A stretch of 64,000 nt of DNA from NCBI GenBank assembly GCA_016193465.1, contig JACPSE010000006.1, positions 13,684 to 77,683 of the forward strand. The letters run 5' to 3'. Source of the stretch: Deltaproteobacteria bacterium. Lineage in GTDB: Bacteria > Desulfobacterota > Binatia > UBA9968. The number at the start of each line of letters is the position of its first letter. Position 1 is the first letter of the stretch. Positions 13,319-19,868 of the stretch are shown here, piece after piece. Below the pieces are notes generated by a model that saw nothing but the letters and a program-made list of their open reading frames with translations, had not been told where the DNA came from and did no database searches. The translations under genes and the position numbers were made by a program.

Positions 13319-13771
13319 GTGCTGGTAAACAAGAGACCCTTTTTCACGCGCTATTCCACAAGCCTCTGGATTCGCTTTCTGCGTTTCAATCTCCTTTCCA
13401 ACAAGAAATTGCAGGATGATCTGGAAAAGCTCGATCTTACCCCTCCCCAGTTCTATGTCTTGGCGACCATCGGGTACGCCGGCGAGCTCCCGTTCAGCGA
13501 GATCGGCGAGAAGATGATGGTGACCGTAAGCAACCTGACCGGCATCGTTGATCGGCTAGAGGAAAAAGGATTGGTCACCCGGGAAAGAGACCTGCGTGAT
13601 CGGCGCATAGTCCGCGTCCGGCTAACGGAAAAAGGCTCCAAGCTCTACAAGAACACCATCCCGCTTTTCGAAAAGAGCATTGCGCAATTTTTCGCCCCTC
13701 TCGATAAATCACAACAAAAGGAGCTTTCCTCCCTTTTGCGCAAATTGATCCGCGTATCCTGGGCACACTAA
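13319..13771 (+). CDS. MarR family transcriptional regulator
   Basis: LTPPQFYVL...SNLTGIVDRLEEKGLV.R...DRR...VRLTEKG. Confidence 0.95.
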   Translation: MLVNKRPFFTRYSTSLWIRFLRFNLLSNKKLQDDLEKLDLTPPQFYVLATIGYAGELPFSEIGEKMMVTVSNLTGIVDRLEEKGLVTRERDLRDRRIVRVRLTEKGSKLYKNTIPLFEKSIAQFFAPLDKSQQKELSSLLRKLIRVSWAH

Positions 13772-13864: not shown

Positions 13865-15094
13865 ATGGAAGAAAAAACGAAAAGCCACAGAGCCGCGGGG
13901 CTTGAGCGGGTAAAGAAGTGGCTTTATGCGAAGAGTCTGGAAGAGCGCGGCGCCGGATGCGTTCTCTGTGGCTCCTGCTACGGTCACGGTCCGGCCAACC
14001 CGATGGAGGACCATCCAGGCTTTAAGACCAAATGTCCGCCTTATGAGTTTTACCGCTTCCAGCGTTTCACCCCCAAATCACGCTGGCTCATGGCGCAACG
14101 TGTCTTTCATGGTCTCGACCCCATCACTCCTGAACTAAAAGAGGTTATTTACACTTGCACGACCTGCCTCATGTGCCAGGAGATCTGCGGCGTGCGCAAC
14201 GACGGCTACGGTCCATGGGACATAGCCGTGGCCATGCGCGAGGAAATCACGGCGCAGCAGGGGCCGATCGACGCCCACCGGCCGCTCCTCGAGGGGCTGC
14301 AACACCACAACAACCCATGGGCCCTGCCCAAGAGCAGGCGAGGGCAGTGGGCCAAGGGGCTGGGACTAAAAAAACTCGGCGCTGACAAAAGCCCTACTCT
14401 CCTCTTTGCCGGCTGCTCTGCCGATCTGCCAAGCGGCAGAGCAGGCGCCACAGCCCTCGCCAGGCTCATGAAACAGGCGCGGGAAGACTTCGTCATCTTA
14501 GGAGAAGAAGAGAGCTGCTGCGGCCTCTATGCGAGCGATCTCGGCTTTCGCGGCGAATACTATCGCCTGCAGCAGGAGAATCTTAAAGTGGCAAGACAGG
14601 CCGGGATCAAAAAGATCGTGGTTGCCTGCGGGAGCTGCCGGCGGATCTGGCAGGACTACCCCAAGGAGGAGATGGAAGGGATCGAAGTGCTGCATGGTGT
14701 CGAGTACGTGGATAGGCTCTTGCGCGCAGACCGGCTGAAATTTAACAAGCCCGTGCGGAGAAAAATCACCTACCACGACCCTTGCCATCTCGGAAGGGGC
14801 TCGGGCGTCTATGAAGCGCCGAGAAATATCCTGCGCTCTATTCCTGGAGTTGAGCTGGTGGAGATGGAGCGCAACCGCCGCTGGTCGTGGTGCTGCGGCG
14901 GTGGCGGCGGGGTTCCCGAAGCCTTCCCGGAACTATCTCAGTGGAGCGCTCAGGACCGGCTGAGCGAAGCGGGGCGCACTGGCGCGGACCTCCTCCTGAC
15001 CACGAGCGCGCTTTGTTTGCGCAGCTTCGCCCAACACGGGCAGTCCCGTGTGCCCCCCCAAGAGCTGCTGGAATTCATCTACCAGGCCATTTAA
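13865..15094 (+). CDS. Fe-S-binding oxidoreductase with two CCG domains (GlcF/HdrD-like)
   Basis: CVLCGSC and CTTCLMCQEIC ferredoxin motifs; ESCCG, YHDPCHLGR and WCCGGGGG CCG motifs. Confidence 0.9.
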   Translation: MEEKTKSHRAAGLERVKKWLYAKSLEERGAGCVLCGSCYGHGPANPMEDHPGFKTKCPPYEFYRFQRFTPKSRWLMAQRVFHGLDPITPELKEVIYTCTTCLMCQEICGVRNDGYGPWDIAVAMREEITAQQGPIDAHRPLLEGLQHHNNPWALPKSRRGQWAKGLGLKKLGADKSPTLLFAGCSADLPSGRAGATALARLMKQAREDFVILGEEESCCGLYASDLGFRGEYYRLQQENLKVARQAGIKKIVVACGSCRRIWQDYPKEEMEGIEVLHGVEYVDRLLRADRLKFNKPVRRKITYHDPCHLGRGSGVYEAPRNILRSIPGVELVEMERNRRWSWCCGGGGGVPEAFPELSQWSAQDRLSEAGRTGADLLLTTSALCLRSFAQHGQSRVPPQELLEFIYQAI

Positions 15095-15097
15095 GGA

Positions 15098-15835
15098 ATG
15101 CGAAAAGAGGCTCATTTCACTCCTGAAAAAATGCTTTCTCTCCTGGGAGTCAAGGCCGGATCGCTGGCCCCTTACGCTCTTATCCCCGGGCCCAAGGAGC
15201 GCAGCCAGATGCTCCTGGCGGCGCTAAAAAATACGCGCAAAAATTTTTCCTTCCTGGATTATGAGATGCACACGGGGACGCACGACGGGAGACAAGTAAC
15301 CGTGGGTAACGGGGGGCGGTATGCTCCCGATACCGCGATCACCACGGAGATCCTGTGCGCGGCCGGCGTCGAGTCGCTCATCCGCATCGGGAGCTGCGGC
15401 TCCTTGCAGGAGGATATCAGGATTGGCGACCTGGTCATTGTCACCGGAGCGCTGCGCGGGGAGGGGACGACGAGTTACTATGTGCCAAAAAATTTTTCTA
15501 CCCTCTCCCACCCGGAGATTGTTGGCGCCCTAACCGAGGCGGCAAAGAGTTTGAACGTCCGTTATCACCTCGGTTCGGTTTTTACCACCGACGCCCTGTT
15601 TCAGGAAACCCCGGAACTCATTCAGGAGCTGGAGCAGCAGAAGGTCTCCGGGATCGACATGGTCACGTCAACCTTTCTCACCGTCGCCCAGGTGCGCCAT
15701 AAAAAGGCCTGCGCGATCCTGGCTGTTTCGGACGAGTGTCTCAAGGGAAAGATGGGGTTCCGCGATCCCGTTTTTCTCGAGGCCGAAGAAAAAATGGTCG
15801 AGGTCGCGCTCAAGGCGATCCATCTCCTGGATTAA
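15098..15835 (+). CDS. Nucleoside phosphorylase (hexameric DeoD/Udp type)
   Basis: IPGPKER, LIRIGSCG, GDLVI, RGEGT, TTDALF and AILAVSD motifs. The canonical EME motif reads DMV. Confidence 0.88.
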   Translation: MRKEAHFTPEKMLSLLGVKAGSLAPYALIPGPKERSQMLLAALKNTRKNFSFLDYEMHTGTHDGRQVTVGNGGRYAPDTAITTEILCAAGVESLIRIGSCGSLQEDIRIGDLVIVTGALRGEGTTSYYVPKNFSTLSHPEIVGALTEAAKSLNVRYHLGSVFTTDALFQETPELIQELEQQKVSGIDMVTSTFLTVAQVRHKKACAILAVSDECLKGKMGFRDPVFLEAEEKMVEVALKAIHLLD

Positions 15836-15841
15836 AAAAAG

Positions 15842-17368
15842 ATGAAACCGAAACAGAGTCCGCTTTTTGTCCCGGCGCTCTGGGAAGAGGACCATTTCAA
15901 GATTGTCGATGAAACCCTGCTTCCCTGGAAGGTGGAATACATCACGGTCCGCGCGATCCCCGAGGCGCTGCGGGCAGTCAAGGAGATGAAGACGCGCGCC
16001 TTTGGCCAGGTTCTAACCTTTCTTTACGCTGCGGCCCTGGTGGCGCAAGGCTACAAAGCCAAAGATCTCGAACCGTTAAGATCGCGGCTCGCCCAACTGG
16101 CAGAGGAATTCACTGAGGCGCGCCCGACCTTTGATTTCCAAGGGCTCGCCGGATCTTACACCGAATGGTTTCGTGACTATCCGCCGGGGGAAGAGCCGGG
16201 AAGGTGGTTTTGCACAAAGGCCATTGCCTTCGCGGACACGATTGTGCAAGCGCGAAACAACAGAGCCAGACTGGCCGCCGGGATCCTTCCGGACCCCTGC
16301 CGGCTTCTTACCCATTGCAACATTAGCGGCGAGCTCGTTGCTGTGGCCGAGTGGTGTCGTCAAATGGGCAAGGAGATCCGGATCGTTGCCACGGAAACCC
16401 GTCCCTATCTCCAGGGCTCCCGTCTGACTGCCTGGGAGCTCTCCCGGGCCGGCTTTCGGGTTGCCTTGATTCCTGACTGCGCGATCGCGCAGGTCATGGC
16501 TAAGGGGGAAGTCAATGCCGTGCTGGTTGGCGCGGATCGCTGCGCTCAAAACGGCGATGTGATCAACAAGGTGGGAACCTATCCGTTGGCCTTGATGGCC
16601 AAGGAATACAACGTCCCTTTCCATGCCTTAGTCCAAGAGCCCGGTCTGCTTGCTAAGGGAGAGGACGTCCTGATCGAAGAGCGCCCGGTCTCGGAGCTCT
16701 TCGCCTTTCAAAGCCGCGCGCGCGCGCCCGAAGGCCTGAAAGGCCGCTATCCGGCTTTTGATCTCACGCCTTCCTCTCTGATCACAACGCTGATCGGCTT
16801 CGATAGCGCTCTCACGCCTGAGAGTTTCAGACAAAGATTTCACCAGGACACCCATGCCACCGCAAACAGCAAGAAAGAGGGAGAGCCTTACCTTCTCTTG
16901 TATGGAATTCCCAAGCGCGACAGCTACGCCCATCTCTCCCATGCGCTCAAAGCGGAGCAGGCGTCCGCGGTCCTGGTCCCAGAGATGCGCCCGGCGCTGT
17001 GGGGCGCGCGCGTGATTACTCGTGAGCTCCTTCAGAGGAAAATCCCGGCGACGCTCATCTCCGACAACATGATGGGCGCGTTTTTCGCGCAGGGACAAAT
17101 TAAACGCCTCTATCTCTTCTACTCGGAGCTTAGTGGAGAGAGGCTCGTGGGCATCTGCGGCTCACTGCTGGCGGTGCGTCTGGCGCGGACCCACGCGGTA
17201 CCCATCGAGCTGCTCTCGGCCGAAGAAAGTCAGGACGCTCCGCCCGATCGCGACGTCTCCACTTTCCTGGGCCAGCGGGTCATCTGCGATCGGGTCACCA
17301 TCTATCCCATTGAAAAGGAGGTCATCCCTTGGTCTCTATTAAAAGAGAGCAGGGCTGGCAGCGCATGA
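15842..17368 (+). CDS. mtnA: Methylthioribose-1-phosphate isomerase-like protein with a degenerate duplicated C-terminal domain
   Basis: IVDETLLP, LTHCN, ETRPYLQGSRLTAWEL, GADRCAQNGDVINKVGTY and FDLTP motifs, then a second EMRP..GAR....EL...IPATLISDNM copy. Confidence 0.85.
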   Translation: MKPKQSPLFVPALWEEDHFKIVDETLLPWKVEYITVRAIPEALRAVKEMKTRAFGQVLTFLYAAALVAQGYKAKDLEPLRSRLAQLAEEFTEARPTFDFQGLAGSYTEWFRDYPPGEEPGRWFCTKAIAFADTIVQARNNRARLAAGILPDPCRLLTHCNISGELVAVAEWCRQMGKEIRIVATETRPYLQGSRLTAWELSRAGFRVALIPDCAIAQVMAKGEVNAVLVGADRCAQNGDVINKVGTYPLALMAKEYNVPFHALVQEPGLLAKGEDVLIEERPVSELFAFQSRARAPEGLKGRYPAFDLTPSSLITTLIGFDSALTPESFRQRFHQDTHATANSKKEGEPYLLLYGIPKRDSYAHLSHALKAEQASAVLVPEMRPALWGARVITRELLQRKIPATLISDNMMGAFFAQGQIKRLYLFYSELSGERLVGICGSLLAVRLARTHAVPIELLSAEESQDAPPDRDVSTFLGQRVICDRVTIYPIEKEVIPWSLLKESRAGSA

Positions 17369-18363
17369 AAAAGCTGGAGCGCGAGATGATCTACTTTGGC
17401 AAGCTCCTTTTCGAGCGCCGCCTGATCAGCGGCTGGGGCGGAAACATAAGCTGTCGTCTTGGAAAAGACCGTTTCCTCATTACCGCGCAGCACGCCTCTT
17501 TAGGTTTTCTCAGCCCCGCCGAGCTGCTCCAGATTGACGGGAAAGGGAAACCGGCCAAGAAAAAGCGACAGCCATCGAGTGAAACTCCCCTCCACCTTGC
17601 AGTCTACAGCGGCACCGAGGCCCAGGCTGTGGTCCACGCCCACCCTCCCGGGGTGCTCGCTTTCTCTCTAGGCCACCAAAGCTTTGTTCCTCTGAGCTTT
17701 GAGGAAAAATACACTATCGGGGAGGTTCCCGTTCTGGCGCAGCAGACCCCCACGGTGACCGAAACTGCGAGAGTGGTGGAGCAGCTCAGGCTTTGCCCTA
17801 TCGTTATCCTCCAAGGCCACGGCACCGTTGCCTTGGGGAAAAACTTGCGAGAGGCCTTCCTTTTAACCGACCTCCTGGAAGAGGCTGTCCACTGCCAGTT
17901 TTTCAACAATGAGTCCAAACCCCAGGCCGATCCAAGGCCGACTTCCCTGCCGGGCCGCCATAGCGGCGATCCCGAACTGGGGGAAAAATACGCGCTTTTT
18001 TCTCAGGAGCACATGACGGCCCTTATCAAGAGCGCCAATGGCGATGCCGAATTTCAGAGCCAGGGCGAGGCAACCGGACTGACAACCACCCTCACTCTCT
18101 ACCTGGAAGATGCGGATACCCCCTGGACGGTCCACTTCGAAAAGGGCAAGATCACCCGCCTGGAAGCAGCGGCGGAGGGAGAGTTTATTATTAGCGGAAG
18201 GAGAGAATGGTGGGAGGCGATTTTTCAGAGACGCATGGATCCCTTCCTCGCAACCCAGCAAGGGAAGCTCAGGCTTAAGCGCGGCGAGCTTTGGCAGCTC
18301 TCCCAATGGTTCAAACCTTTTCAGAGAGCTTTCGCGTTATGGCAGACGATTCCCATCAAGTAG
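17365..18363 (+). CDS. Class II aldolase/adducin fused to a C-terminal SCP2 (sterol-carrier-like) domain
   Basis: GNIS, PSSETPLH, VVHAHP and LQGHG motifs; C-terminal IISG..EWWEAI...MDPFLA.QQGKL SCP2 pattern; ATGA overlap with mtnA. Confidence 0.88.
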   Translation: MKKLEREMIYFGKLLFERRLISGWGGNISCRLGKDRFLITAQHASLGFLSPAELLQIDGKGKPAKKKRQPSSETPLHLAVYSGTEAQAVVHAHPPGVLAFSLGHQSFVPLSFEEKYTIGEVPVLAQQTPTVTETARVVEQLRLCPIVILQGHGTVALGKNLREAFLLTDLLEEAVHCQFFNNESKPQADPRPTSLPGRHSGDPELGEKYALFSQEHMTALIKSANGDAEFQSQGEATGLTTTLTLYLEDADTPWTVHFEKGKITRLEAAAEGEFIISGRREWWEAIFQRRMDPFLATQQGKLRLKRGELWQLSQWFKPFQRAFALWQTIPIK

Positions 18364-19868
18364 GATTCTTCGCCGCTGACATCCTGGAGCGGAGCGCGCA
18401 AAAGTTTCCTGAGAAAGTCGCCCTTATCTCGCGGGAAGGAGAGCTCACTTTCAAAGAGGTGAGGGAGAGAGCCGCCAATCTCGCAGGCCACATGCAGAGC
18501 GAGGGGATCCGGCAGGGAGATCGAGTCGGCCTCCTCTTGCCGAATTCCAGCGCCTTTGCCCTCGGCTATTATGCAACCCAAAAAACGGGCGCCGTCACTG
18601 TCGTCCTGGATGCACGGCTTAAGGGGAGAGAGCTCGCCGGGGTCCTCCGTGATGCCGACCTCAGTCTCCTGATGACCCATAAGCGTCTCCTCGCCGATAA
18701 TGACGCGACGCTTGGAGAGTTCGGCCAGCTTGCCCGGTGGGTTGTTGACGGCGAGGGCGAACAGGACTTCGAAAAAAGGCTCTCTCATCCAGCGGAATGT
18801 TTTGTGCCGCCTGAGCCCCAGCCAACGAATGACGCCCTGATCCTCTACACCTCAGGAACAACAGGGGAACCGAAAGGCGTGGTCCTGAATCACATCAATC
18901 TGGCGCAGTTTCCTCGCTGCATGACGGAGGTGTGCAAGACGGGGGCCAATGAGGTCCTAGGCTGCATCCTTCCCATGTCGCATATCTCCGGTCCGATCCA
19001 GTGCAACGAGATTGTGGACAAGGGCGGCACCTTGGTTATATTCGATCAGATGAATCCGGTGACCTTGCTTGAGGGGATCCAGAGACACCGGATCACTGTG
19101 TTTCACGGCGTCCCTGTCATCTTCCAGCTTCTCCTGGGAGCGGCCAACCTGAAGGACTATGACACGACCAGCGTCAGCCTCGCGGCAATGATGGGGACAA
19201 CGGTGCCCTTGCCCTTGATGCGCGCCTTCAAAAAATCCCAGCCCCATATCAAAGTCATCCAGGGATATGGTCTCACGGAGAGCTCCCCTTTGATAACGCT
19301 GACCGATCCCAAAGACGCAGACGCAAAGATGGCGAGCATTGGAAAATCCGCTCCAGGGGTAGAGATAAAGATCGTTGATGAGAGAGGCCGCGAGGCGCCA
19401 GAAGGCGAAGCCGGTGAGATTATCACCCGCGGACCCCATGTGATGAAGGGCTATTTTCGCAGGCCAGAGGTAACCGCGGAGCGGATTCGCAACGGCTGGC
19501 TCTACACCGGGGATATTGGACGGTGCGACAGTGACGGCTACTATTACCACCTGGGGCGAAAAGATGACATGATCATCACCGGTGGGCTCAACGTTTATCC
19601 GGCCGAGGTGGAGAATATGCTCTCTGAGCACCCCCAGGTCCAGGAGGCGGTGGTCTTTCCGATCCCGGACTCCAAGAGAGGAAACATCATCGGCGCCGCC
19701 GTGGTCCTGCGTCCGGGAGAAAAAACAGCAGAAAGGGATCTGCTCACTTTTCTCCGCTCGAACCTGGCAAACTTCAAGGTCCCGCAGAAAATCAAGATCC
19801 GCGATTCCCTTCCCCACACCTCCTCTGGCAAAGCGGTTAGGGATGCCTCAGCCCTGCTCTCGGACTAG
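18339..19868 (+). CDS. AMP-forming acyl-CoA ligase (long-chain fatty acid CoA ligase-like)
   Basis: YTSGTTGEPKG, QGYGLTE, GEIITRGPHVMKGY, YTGD and GRKDDMII motifs. Confidence 0.93.
   Translation: MADDSHQVGFFAADILERSAQKFPEKVALISREGELTFKEVRERAANLAGHMQSEGIRQGDRVGLLLPNSSAFALGYYATQKTGAVTVVLDARLKGRELAGVLRDADLSLLMTHKRLLADNDATLGEFGQLARWVVDGEGEQDFEKRLSHPAECFVPPEPQPTNDALILYTSGTTGEPKGVVLNHINLAQFPRCMTEVCKTGANEVLGCILPMSHISGPIQCNEIVDKGGTLVIFDQMNPVTLLEGIQRHRITVFHGVPVIFQLLLGAANLKDYDTTSVSLAAMMGTTVPLPLMRAFKKSQPHIKVIQGYGLTESSPLITLTDPKDADAKMASIGKSAPGVEIKIVDERGREAPEGEAGEIITRGPHVMKGYFRRPEVTAERIRNGWLYTGDIGRCDSDGYYYHLGRKDDMIITGGLNVYPAEVENMLSEHPQVQEAVVFPIPDSKRGNIIGAAVVLRPGEKTAERDLLTFLRSNLANFKVPQKIKIRDSLPHTSSGKAVRDASALLSD

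What the first reader, a model, noticed from the sequence alone, without database searches (positions are those of the whole stretch)
17365..18363. Class II aldolase fused to an SCP2 lipid-carrier domain
A Zn-aldolase with intact His ligands carries a linker and an SCP2-like domain. SCP2 binds acyl chains or acyl-CoA, suggesting channelling of a hydrophobic aldehyde or acyl product to the neighbouring CoA ligase, whose gene overlaps this one.
Basis: partly seen in the sequence, partly recalled or inferred. Interest (0 to 1): 0.55.

Follow-up and report, generated by a model that had tools for sequence, protein, structure and literature searches.

The report
Aldolase with tethered lipid-carrier domain
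A zinc sugar-phosphate aldolase joined to a lipid-carrier (SCP2) domain is real and conserved in about 60 uncultured Binatia species, always coupled to an acyl-CoA ligase inside a second, specialised copy of the nucleoside "DHAP shunt"; this points to an unstudied route that may trim a greasy nucleoside down to a CoA-activated acid.

Summary
ORF 17365-18363 (+) encodes 332 aa:
- a class II aldolase domain (residues 1-182) with E73/H91/H93/H152 intact;
- a disordered, unconserved linker (183-210);
- an SCP2 domain (211-332). It passes Pfam's cut-off and matches Thermus SCP2 (2cx7) at Z 16.8, rmsd 2.0 Å.

The ligase gene overlaps the aldolase gene by 25 nt. The same overlap occurs in 58 of 59 related loci.

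The fixed Binatia operon is MarR, CCG Fe-S protein, nucleoside phosphorylase, MtnA-like isomerase, aldolase::SCP2, FadD-like ligase. The genome also has a canonical MtnA and MTA phosphorylase elsewhere, so this operon is a specialised paralogous DHAP-shunt-like set.

Distant fused homologues (33-40% identical) lie beside a B12 radical SAM enzyme, an aldehyde dehydrogenase, and MMPL/LolA-type lipid exporters.

The genetic coupling is very strong. However, a ligase cannot accept an aldehyde, and the Binatia operon encodes no aldehyde dehydrogenase.

SCP2 was lost at least three times within Binatia, so it is accessory rather than essential. The ligand is unknown.

This scan has found the same fusion before on other DNA (Omnitrophota and others). 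No paper in the held library mentions it.

Novelty: new variant of a known kind.

The parts
13319..13771 (+). MarR-family regulator, first gene of the conserved gene row
   Evidence: Pfam MarR E 2.8e-19. Present upstream in 44/44 Binatia-type loci that have enough flank.
13865..15094 (+). Fe-S protein with a 4Fe-4S dicluster and two CCG domains (HdrD/GlpC/TfrB-like); role unknown
   Evidence: Pfam CCG E 2.8e-28 and Fer4_8. No NCBIfam equivalog cut-off reached. Present in 42/44 loci.
15098..15835 (+). Hexameric-type (DeoD/Udp/SsMTAP-like) nucleoside phosphorylase in which the EME ribose motif reads DMV
   Evidence: Pfam PNP_UDP_1 E 3.9e-34. Second-best solved relative is Sulfolobus MTA phosphorylase 1jds. 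The DMV/DMI motif is conserved in all module phosphorylases.
15842..17368 (+). MtnA-like ribose-1-P isomerase (residues 1-330) fused to a second, partial IF-2B-like domain (about 345-500)
   Evidence: TIGR00512 scores 224 bits, below its 279-bit cut-off. The extra domain is a separate 152-156 aa ORF in distant operons. A canonical MtnA lies elsewhere in the genome.
17365..17910 (+). Class II (FucA/Ald2-like) metal aldolase domain, residues 1-182
   Evidence: Pfam 129 bits. Fold Z 26.0 to 2fk5. Metal and phosphate ligands aligned and invariant.
17911..17994 (+). Flexible linker, residues 183-210
   Evidence: Residues 183-205 have pLDDT below 50. Mean pairwise identity is 0.17, against 0.74 and 0.69 for the two domains. 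Length varies between homologues.
17995..18363 (+). SCP2-fold domain, residues 211-332, plus the stop codon
   Evidence: Pfam SCP2 25.3 bits (cut-off 21.3). Homologues score 24-36 bits. VIA-align Z 16.8, rmsd 2.0 Å over 120 residues to 2cx7_B; other SCP2 structures score Z 7-9.5.
18339..19868 (+). FadD-like AMP-forming acyl-CoA ligase, translationally coupled to the aldolase (25-nt overlap)
   Evidence: Pfam AMP-binding E 1.1e-85. Nearest solved relatives are feruloyl/fatty-acyl-CoA synthetases, not acetyl-CoA synthetase. Adjacent with an identical 25-nt overlap in 58/59 loci.

Best explanation
The gene encodes one polypeptide with two working parts. The first is a metal-dependent class II aldolase. 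The second is an SCP2 lipid-carrier domain tethered by a floppy linker of about 28 residues.

The protein is the C-C cleavage step of a MarR-controlled operon that parallels the DHAP shunt. The phosphorylase removes the base from a 5'-substituted nucleoside. The MtnA-like isomerase converts the ribose-1-phosphate to a ribulose-1-phosphate. The aldolase then releases DHAP and an aldehyde that carries the 5'-substituent.

I infer that this substituent is lipophilic. On that reading the SCP2 domain holds the greasy tail of the substrate or product at the open aldehyde side of the active site. After oxidation, the resulting acid is activated by the translationally coupled FadD-like ligase. The oxidation enzyme is encoded in distant operons but not in the Binatia operon.

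Shown: the domain identities, the catalytic residues, the operon structure, its paralogous status and the coupling to the ligase. Inferred: the direction of flux, the lipophilic nature of the substrate and the role of SCP2.
For: - Domains and residues.
- Fixed gene row: phosphorylase, isomerase and MarR are present in 44/44 Binatia loci and the ligase in 58/59, always with a 25-nt overlap.
- SCP2 is nearly as constrained as the catalytic domain (identity 0.69 against 0.74), whereas the linker is not (0.17).
- The genome has a canonical MtnA (429 bits, cut-off 279) and a canonical MTA phosphorylase (312.6 bits, cut-off 274.85) elsewhere. Four other module-bearing genomes also have a better-scoring second MtnA. 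The module is therefore not the housekeeping salvage set.
- All module phosphorylases share DMV in place of EME.
- The ligase belongs to the fatty/aromatic-acid type, not the acetate type.
- Fused homologues at 33-40% identity sit in operons with a B12 radical SAM enzyme, an aldehyde dehydrogenase directly after the aldolase, and MMPL, LolA-like and DUF1302 lipid-export proteins. A third operon type carries a lipid A-type acyltransferase.
- The C-terminal domain subfamily occurs almost only on aldolases: 20 full-length fused clusters among 71 hits in 1.84 billion representatives.
- A lipid-tailed nucleoside cut by a PNP homologue has a precedent in HpnH/HpnG and adenosylhopane (PMC13459092).
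Against: - No ligand is known and no binding has been shown.
- SCP2 was lost at least three times inside the Binatia clade. In G219/G223 the rest of the operon, including the ligase, stayed intact, so SCP2 is not essential to the pathway.
- The Binatia operon has no aldehyde dehydrogenase, radical SAM enzyme or lipid exporter.
- The radical SAM enzyme of the distant operons is a B12-binding, BchE/HpnR/HpnJ-like type. Such enzymes normally abstract hydrogen and release plain 5'-deoxyadenosine.
- Two Binatia genomes (G213, G218) have the full module but no homologue of that radical SAM enzyme at E<=1e-60.
- The genome has no squalene-hopene cyclase and no HpnH above cut-off, so adenosylhopane is not made in this cell.
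- An earlier check in this scan priced the lipid-adduct reading at 10/100.
Confidence: 0.45

Rival explanations
1. This is an ordinary DHAP shunt for the small SAM by-products 5'-deoxyadenosine and/or MTA, yielding DHAP plus acetaldehyde or 2-(methylthio)acetaldehyde. On this reading the SCP2 domain is accessory. It might act as a lid replacing the missing FucA-type C-terminal tail, an oligomerisation or docking module, or a trap for a volatile, reactive aldehyde. The ligase would activate the small acid, for example (methylthio)acetate.
For: - The enzyme trio and its order match the published DHAP shunt (abstracts).
- Distant operons place the module beside a B12 radical SAM enzyme, which should release 5'-deoxyadenosine.
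- SCP2 was lost repeatedly, in one lineage with the rest of the operon intact.
- The aldolase domain ends at about residue 182 and lacks the last ~30 residues of FucA. Something may need to cap the active site.
- SCP2-fold domains serve structural roles in Eis-type acetyltransferases, which appear in the fold list at Z 4.5-6.
Against: - The genome already has a canonical MtnA and MTA phosphorylase, as do other module-bearing genomes for MtnA.
- The module carries three conserved peculiarities a small-substrate shunt does not need: SCP2, an extra IF-2B-like domain and the DMV phosphorylase motif.
- The ligase is of the FadD/feruloyl type, not the acetyl-CoA synthetase type.
- MarR control and patchy distribution fit a specialised function.
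Confidence: 0.3
2. The module runs in the biosynthetic direction. The ligase, with a reductase, supplies a fatty aldehyde held by SCP2. The aldolase condenses it with DHAP into a long-chain ketose-1-phosphate. The isomerase and phosphorylase then convert that into a lipid-tailed sugar phosphate or nucleoside destined for the envelope.
For: - Aldolase, isomerase and phosphorylase reactions are all reversible (established enzymology).
- One fused homologue (L039) has no phosphorylase or MtnA nearby. It sits with a Zn alcohol dehydrogenase, a DeoC-type aldolase, a phosphohexomutase, a lipid A-type acyltransferase, and MMPL/LolA/DUF1302 exporters.
- The exporters recur in the radical SAM type of operon.
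Against: - The Binatia operon has no acyl-CoA or acid reductase, no exporter and no acyltransferase.
- MarR-controlled operons ending in a CoA ligase are typically catabolic (inference).
- The aldehyde dehydrogenase in distant operons belongs to the non-acylating ALDH family by its best matches.
Confidence: 0.15
3. The N-terminal domain is not an aldolase. It would be another member of the class II aldolase superfamily, such as an MtnB-like dehydratase, an epimerase or a decarboxylase, acting on the isomerase product.
For: - The superfamily includes dehydratases, epimerases and decarboxylases that share the same metal site. NCBIfam lists weak matches to MtnB (61.8 bits) and to 3-oxo-tetronate-4-P decarboxylase (86.4 bits).
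- The residue aligned with the FucA proton donor Y113 is Phe112.
Against: - No non-aldolase model reaches its cut-off; MtnB needs 137 bits.
- The best-scoring models and structures are short archaeal or Thermus-type aldolases.
- An invariant Tyr116 lies four residues after the aligned position, as in the closest structure 2fk5.
- An aldehyde dehydrogenase follows the gene directly in distant operons.
- No MtnC/MtnD-type genes are in the operon.
Confidence: 0.05

Closest known systems
DHAP-shunt / 5-deoxyribose disposal aldolases (Ald2 of Rhodospirillum rubrum and ExPEC E. coli; DrdA of Bacillus thuringiensis, PDB 6btd/6btg)
   Same: Both have the class II aldolase fold and metal site (6btd matched by sequence, and by fold). 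Both sit directly after an MtnA-type isomerase and a base-removing enzyme. The expected products are DHAP plus an aldehyde (pathway as described in the abstracts).
   Different: - This protein carries a tethered SCP2 domain.
- Its phosphorylase is a DeoD/Udp-type with DMV instead of EME.
- Its isomerase carries an extra IF-2B-like domain.
- A FadD-like ligase is translationally coupled.
- The operon coexists with a canonical MtnA and MTA phosphorylase.
Fluoroacetate route of Streptomyces cattleya (5'-fluoro-5'-deoxyadenosine phosphorylase, isomerase, aldolase, aldehyde dehydrogenase). From my own knowledge; also named in an earlier scan note.
   Same: The enzyme order is the same (nucleoside phosphorylase, MtnA-like isomerase, class II aldolase, aldehyde dehydrogenase), trimming a 5'-substituted adenosine to a two-carbon acid that keeps the substituent.
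   Different: There is no halogenase here and no SCP2 there. That route has no CoA ligase. The Binatia operon lacks the aldehyde dehydrogenase.
HpnH/HpnG steps of hopanoid side-chain synthesis (adenosylhopane to phosphoribosylhopane)
   Same: This is a precedent for a nucleoside with a large lipid at C5' being processed by a PNP-family enzyme (PMC13459092). HAE3/HpnN-like MMPL transporters accompany the distant operons.
   Different: The genome has no squalene-hopene cyclase and no HpnH above cut-off. The phosphorylase matches the HpnG model only weakly (26.7 bits against a cut-off of 187). No isomerase or aldolase step is known in hopanoid synthesis.
SCP2 domains fused to lipid enzymes (SCPx thiolase-SCP2, MFE-2, alkyl sulfatase YjcS/SdsA1, UbiJ) and stand-alone Thermus thermophilus SCP2 (2cx7)
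   Same: The fold is the same: Z 16.8 to 2cx7, 9.1 to human SCP2, 8.2 to the YjcS C-terminal domain and 7.8 to UbiJ-SCP2. The arrangement is also the same, with the SCP2 domain at the C-terminus of an enzyme.
   Different: The partner here is a sugar-phosphate aldolase. I found no paper describing that combination. This SCP2 subfamily is unusually well conserved and has several invariant polar residues (S213, H216, N225, D227, D292, Q299).

Membership tests
Class II aldolase/adducin superfamily (PF00596) | Profile match above the curated cut-off | tested here: met
   129.1 bits against a cut-off of 22.2, residues 7-178
Class II aldolase/adducin superfamily (PF00596) | Three His metal ligands plus the catalytic Glu (FucA H92, H94, H155, E73) | tested here: met
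   H91, H93, H152 and E73 align to FucA and are invariant in 42 homologues
Class II aldolase/adducin superfamily (PF00596) | Fold | tested here: met
   VIA-align Z 26.0, rmsd 2.1 Å, 185 residues to 2fk5_A; Foldseek E 6e-16
Class II aldolase/adducin superfamily (PF00596) | Proton-donor Tyr equivalent to FucA Y113 | tested here: inconclusive
   The aligned residue is F112. An invariant Y116 lies four residues later, in a loop with pLDDT below 50, as in 2fk5
DHAP-shunt aldolase (Ald2/DrdA) | Gene clustered with a base-removing enzyme and an MtnA/DrdI isomerase | tested here: met
   Phosphorylase and MtnA-like genes lie directly upstream in 44/44 loci
DHAP-shunt aldolase (Ald2/DrdA) | Cleaves 5-deoxyribulose-1-P or methylthioribulose-1-P to DHAP plus an aldehyde | not testable with these tools
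   Needs an enzyme assay
DHAP-shunt aldolase (Ald2/DrdA) | Single-domain protein of about 200-220 aa | tested here: not met
   332 aa with an added linker and SCP2 domain
L-fuculose-phosphate aldolase (the name some sources give to homologues) | NCBIfam equivalog cut-off | tested here: not met
   TIGR01086 fucA scores 40.4 bits against 400.25; FucA_Meth scores 79.3 against 250
MtnB methylthioribulose-1-P dehydratase | NCBIfam equivalog cut-off | tested here: not met
   TIGR03328 scores 61.8 bits against 137.05; PRK09220 scores 58.5 against 226
SCP2 sterol-transfer family (PF02036) | Profile match above the curated cut-off | tested here: met
   25.3 bits against 21.3. Distant fused and stand-alone homologues score 24.2-36.3 bits; one of ten tested had no match
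SCP2 sterol-transfer family (PF02036) | Alpha/beta SCP2 fold | tested here: met
   Z 16.8, rmsd 2.0 Å, 120 of 130 residues to 2cx7_B; seven further SCP2 structures at Z 7.2-9.5. Domain pLDDT is about 86-95 over most of its length, lower (68-77) at 291-320
SCP2 sterol-transfer family (PF02036) | Binds a lipid or acyl-CoA in a hydrophobic tunnel | not testable with these tools
   The only hint is the set of invariant aromatic residues on the helices and strands (W254, F258, F274, W283, F287, F294, W315, F319, F323, W326)

The most novel reading that the evidence does not exclude
The operon handles a nucleoside whose 5' carbon carries a lipid, for example the adduct made when a radical SAM enzyme adds the 5'-deoxyadenosyl radical to an unsaturated lipid. 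It trims the ribose away as adenine plus DHAP, leaving the lipid extended by two carbons as an aldehyde, then an acid, then an acyl-CoA. The SCP2 domain would be the handle for the lipid tail. This would be a new way of activating or remodelling hydrocarbons and lipids with SAM as a C2 donor.
Probability: 0.25. Interest if true: 0.85.

Novelty: new variant of a known kind. Interest (0 to 1): 0.6.

Why it matters
The DHAP shunt is currently understood as a disposal route for small SAM by-products. Here its three enzymes recur as a second, divergent set alongside canonical MtnA. Each carries a conserved peculiarity, and the set is coupled to a fatty-acid-type CoA ligase and, in other lineages, to lipid exporters and a B12 radical SAM enzyme.

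If the SCP2 domain does hold a lipid, it would expose an unknown class of lipid-linked sugar phosphates or nucleosides in widespread soil and groundwater bacteria and in anaerobes. It would also give a defined enzyme (with and without SCP2) with which to find them.

If SCP2 binds no lipid, the protein is still a clean natural example of an SCP2 fold recruited to a non-lipid enzyme. The source annotation of homologues as L-fuculose-phosphate aldolase is not supported here, because the fucA equivalog cut-off is not met.

Tried and rejected
- **Single-sequence AlphaFold2** gave an unusable model (pLDDT 35). The alignment-based model was used instead.
- **Foldseek against PDB** listed only aldolases. 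The SCP2 match came from the VIA-align wide search.
Context was taken from the genome search, the fetch from genomes and the search for related loci instead. The stand-alone SCP2-like proteins therefore have no context.
- **The first alignment handed to the search for related loci** was too diverse. A narrower one worked.
- **Hopanoid idea** (adenosylhopane as substrate made in the cell): rejected for this genome, which has no squalene-hopene cyclase and no HpnH above cut-off.
- **Thermus idea** (the two nearest solved structures are both from T. thermophilus, so it might hold a split version): the plasmid-borne Thermus aldolase sits among creatininase, Tm-1-like and TTT transporter genes, with no SCP2, MtnA or phosphorylase.
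- **Co-occurrence with the B12 radical SAM homologue** among 30 relatives (both 15, module only 4, rSAM only 4, neither 7) is confounded by relatedness and incompleteness. I treat it as inconclusive.
- **Dedicated aldehyde dehydrogenase:** none is in the operon. The genome has at least 10 ALDH paralogues, and the best (38% identical) lies 12.7 kb away in another operon.
- **Expression:** no RNA holder is listed for this stretch.
- **Literature:** no paper in the held library contains both 'class II aldolase' and 'SCP2'. Two reviews, on methionine salvage paralogues and on lipid radical SAM enzymes, do not mention SCP2.
- **Tree:** the first 90-row tree finished only as a quick tree. A reduced 48-row careful tree was used for the loss count, but its bootstrap had not fully settled.
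Full report
**Observation**

Window 17365-18363 (+) is an open frame of 332 codons. Its ATG overlaps the stop of the upstream gene in an ATGA.
- Pfam places Aldolase_II on residues 7-178 (E 2.4e-37) and SCP2 on 231-305 (25.3 bits, cut-off 21.3).
- No NCBIfam equivalog cut-off is reached. The names 'L-fuculose-phosphate aldolase' (40-79 bits against 250-400) and MtnB (62 against 137) are therefore unsupported.
- Alignment with E. coli FucA shows the phosphate and metal site intact: N27, T40, S71, S72, E73, H91, H93 and H152. All are invariant in 42 homologues.
- The residue aligned with FucA Y113 is Phe. An invariant Tyr116 follows four residues later, as in the closest solved structure 2fk5.

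**Structure**

A single-sequence fold was useless. With a 42-row alignment the model reaches pLDDT 81.7. Both domains are confident and residues 183-205 are disordered.
- A search of 48,161 PDB representatives matches residues 1-189 to class II aldolases (Z 26.0 to 2fk5).
- It matches residues 209-330 to Thermus thermophilus SCP2 (2cx7_B: Z 16.8, rmsd 2.0 Å, 120 of 130 residues).
- Archaeal, yeast, human and insect SCP2, the YjcS alkyl-sulfatase C-domain and UbiJ-SCP2 follow at Z 7-9.5.
- Sequence search also touches 2cx7 weakly (E 1e-3). Distant fused and stand-alone homologues pass the SCP2 cut-off on their own at 24-36 bits.

**How widespread the fusion is**

- More than 120 full-length homologues at 63-98% identity exist, named Binatia or 'Deltaproteobacteria' MAGs.
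- The C-terminal domain alone finds only 71 clusters among 1.84 billion representatives. Twenty are full-length fusions of 318-342 aa, a few are 130-151 aa stand-alone proteins, and the rest are fragments or repeat noise.
- A scan of species-representative genomes returned 71 loci. Most are Binatia. Others are labelled Desulfofervidaceae, Deferribacterales UBA4806 and other 'Deltaproteobacteria'.
- Within Binatia, mean pairwise identity is 0.74 for the aldolase domain, 0.69 for SCP2 and 0.17 for the linker. SCP2 is thus under selection nearly as strong as the catalytic domain.

**Context in Binatia**

The gene row is MarR, CCG/Fe-S protein, nucleoside phosphorylase, MtnA-like isomerase, aldolase::SCP2, FadD-like ligase.
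- Among 63 Binatia-type loci, the ligase follows in 58 of the 59 with enough downstream sequence, always with exactly 25 nt of overlap.
- Of the 44 loci with enough upstream sequence, phosphorylase, isomerase and MarR are present in all 44 and the CCG protein in 42.
- The upstream D-Ala-D-Ala carboxypeptidase and MBL hydrolase genes are syntenic but look unrelated in function.
- The spermidine-synthase-like gene downstream is not syntenic.

**Not the housekeeping salvage set**

- The same genome encodes a canonical MtnA (TIGR00512 429 bits against a cut-off of 279; the operon copy scores 224) and a canonical MTA phosphorylase (312.6 against 274.85) on other contigs.
- Three genomes with the distant operon type, and one Binatia genome with the SCP2-less operon, likewise each have a second, better-scoring MtnA.
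- The module's enzymes share conserved peculiarities. The phosphorylase reads DMV (or DMI) where DeoD, Udp and Sulfolobus MTA phosphorylase read EME, in every module copy examined.
- The isomerase carries an extra partial IF-2B-like domain. In distant operons this domain is a separate 152-156 aa gene.

**Other operon types**

- *Radical SAM type.* Fused homologues at 33-40% identity (Desulfofervidaceae and others) lie in this row: MMPL (HAE3/HpnN-like), B12-binding radical SAM (BchE/HpnR/HpnJ-like, no equivalog), phosphorylase, MtnA, small IF-2B-like protein, aldolase::SCP2, aldehyde dehydrogenase, LolA-like, DUF1302, one to three FadD-like ligases.
- *A third type.* Locus L039 has no phosphorylase or isomerase. 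It has MarR, MMPL, LolA-like, DUF1302, a Zn alcohol dehydrogenase, a DeoC-type aldolase, aldolase::SCP2, a ligase, a phosphohexomutase and a lipid A-type acyltransferase.
- The common denominator of all three types is aldolase::SCP2 plus a FadD-like ligase. Two of the three also carry lipid-export genes.

**Losses of SCP2**

A careful tree of the aldolase domain was rooted on the distant fused clade. Its bootstrap had not fully settled. It places three SCP2-less lineages inside the 100/100 Binatia clade, and starred branches force three changes.
- In G219/G223 the whole operon remains, but the overlap with the ligase is replaced by a 63-nt gap.
- In G214 and G226 only the phosphorylase and aldolase remain adjacent.
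- No separate SCP2-like gene was found in these four genomes.
- SCP2 is therefore dispensable in some settings.

**Interpretation**

What is shown is a real two-domain enzyme that acts as the cleavage step of a specialised, paralogous DHAP-shunt-like module, tightly coupled to a fatty-acid-type ligase.

What is inferred is that the 5-substituent of its ketose-1-phosphate substrate is lipophilic and that SCP2 holds it. The grounds for that inference are:
- the strong constraint on SCP2;
- the ligase type (nearest solved relatives are feruloyl/fatty-acyl-CoA synthetases, FadD5 and FadD13, not acetyl-CoA synthetase);
- the lipid genes in the other operon types;
- the absence of the FucA C-terminal tail, which leaves the aldehyde side of the active site open (the role of that tail is from my own knowledge of FucA);
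- the HpnH/HpnG precedent for a lipid-tailed nucleoside (PMC13459092).

Several points weigh against it:
- SCP2 was lost repeatedly.
- The Binatia operon has no aldehyde dehydrogenase, radical SAM enzyme or exporter.
- The radical SAM enzyme in the distant operons is of the B12 type.
- Two Binatia genomes have the module but not that radical SAM homologue.
- The genome has no hopanoid genes.

The Binatia operon does not encode one, unless the CCG protein or one of at least 10 unlinked ALDHs supplies it.

**Relation to earlier work**

The scan has met this fusion before on other DNA: notes e1-1182673, e1-5219803, e1-768321, e1-4986186 and others. A later check there priced the lipid-adduct reading at 10/100.

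My own tests add four things:
- the Binatia operon type, which lacks the radical SAM enzyme and ALDH;
- the invariant 25-nt coupling to the ligase;
- the coexisting canonical MtnA;
- the repeated SCP2 losses.

No paper in the held library mentions a class II aldolase together with SCP2.

**Caveats**

- Genomes G208 and G213 are unpublished. G208 contributes one row to alignments A2 and A3, to the synteny table and to the trees.
- G213 is one of the two genomes (with G218) behind 'module without the radical SAM homologue', and one of the relatives counted.
- No conclusion rests on either genome alone.
- No expression data were available.

Noticed in passing
window 15842-17368 (residues ~345-500); L036:9604-10062: The MtnA-like isomerase carries a second, partial IF-2B-like domain. 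In the distant operons the same piece is a separate 152-156 aa gene between the isomerase and the aldolase. It is therefore a conserved, probably non-catalytic partner that has fused in Binatia.
   Followed up: partly
window 15653-15664: The nucleoside phosphorylase reads I-D-M-V where DeoD, Udp and Sulfolobus MTA phosphorylase have the ribose-binding E-M-E. DMV (or DMI) is conserved in every module phosphorylase examined, in the Binatia and the distant operons and in the SCP2-less variants.
   Followed up: yes
L039:2294-14937 (G035): A third operon type holds aldolase::SCP2 plus a ligase without any phosphorylase or MtnA. Its genes are MarR, MMPL, LolA-like, DUF1302, Zn alcohol dehydrogenase, DeoC-type aldolase, aldolase::SCP2, ligase, phosphohexomutase and a lipid A-type acyltransferase. 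It looks like envelope-lipid biosynthesis.
   Followed up: partly
protein P0177 (694 aa, metagenome representative): A B12-binding radical SAM protein appears joined in one ORF to an N-terminally truncated aldolase::SCP2. The radical SAM domain stops at profile position 130/166 and the aldolase starts at 43/183. This is probably a frameshift or assembly join, but it shows the two genes are adjacent in yet another lineage.
   Followed up: no
G000 contig C48 (L049:10074-11681), C147 end and C80 start: The window's genome has two homologues (39-45% identical) of the distant operons' B12 radical SAM enzyme. One sits with an SDR, an FAD oxidase, a TenA/haem-oxygenase-like protein and an O-methyltransferase. 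The other is split across two contig ends.
   Followed up: partly
window 13865-15094: A stand-alone Fe-S/CCG protein (HdrD/GlpC/TfrB-like) with no flavoprotein partner is a fixed member of the Binatia operon (42/44 loci). It is absent from the other operon types, which have an aldehyde dehydrogenase instead. Its role is unexplained.
   Followed up: no
L060, L086, L091, L097, L102, L111 (record titles): Several MAGs labelled Udaeobacter, Verrucomicrobiia, Limnocylindrales, Chloroflexota or Actinomycetes carry the Binatia-type operon at about 60% identity with full synteny. This suggests mis-binned contigs or wrong labels rather than gene transfer.
   Followed up: no
L059, L075, L110, L111, L119 (long-read MAGs): In these records the CCG, phosphorylase, isomerase or aldolase genes appear broken into two or three pieces. 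This is most simply explained by indel errors of long-read assemblies rather than real pseudogenes.
   Followed up: no
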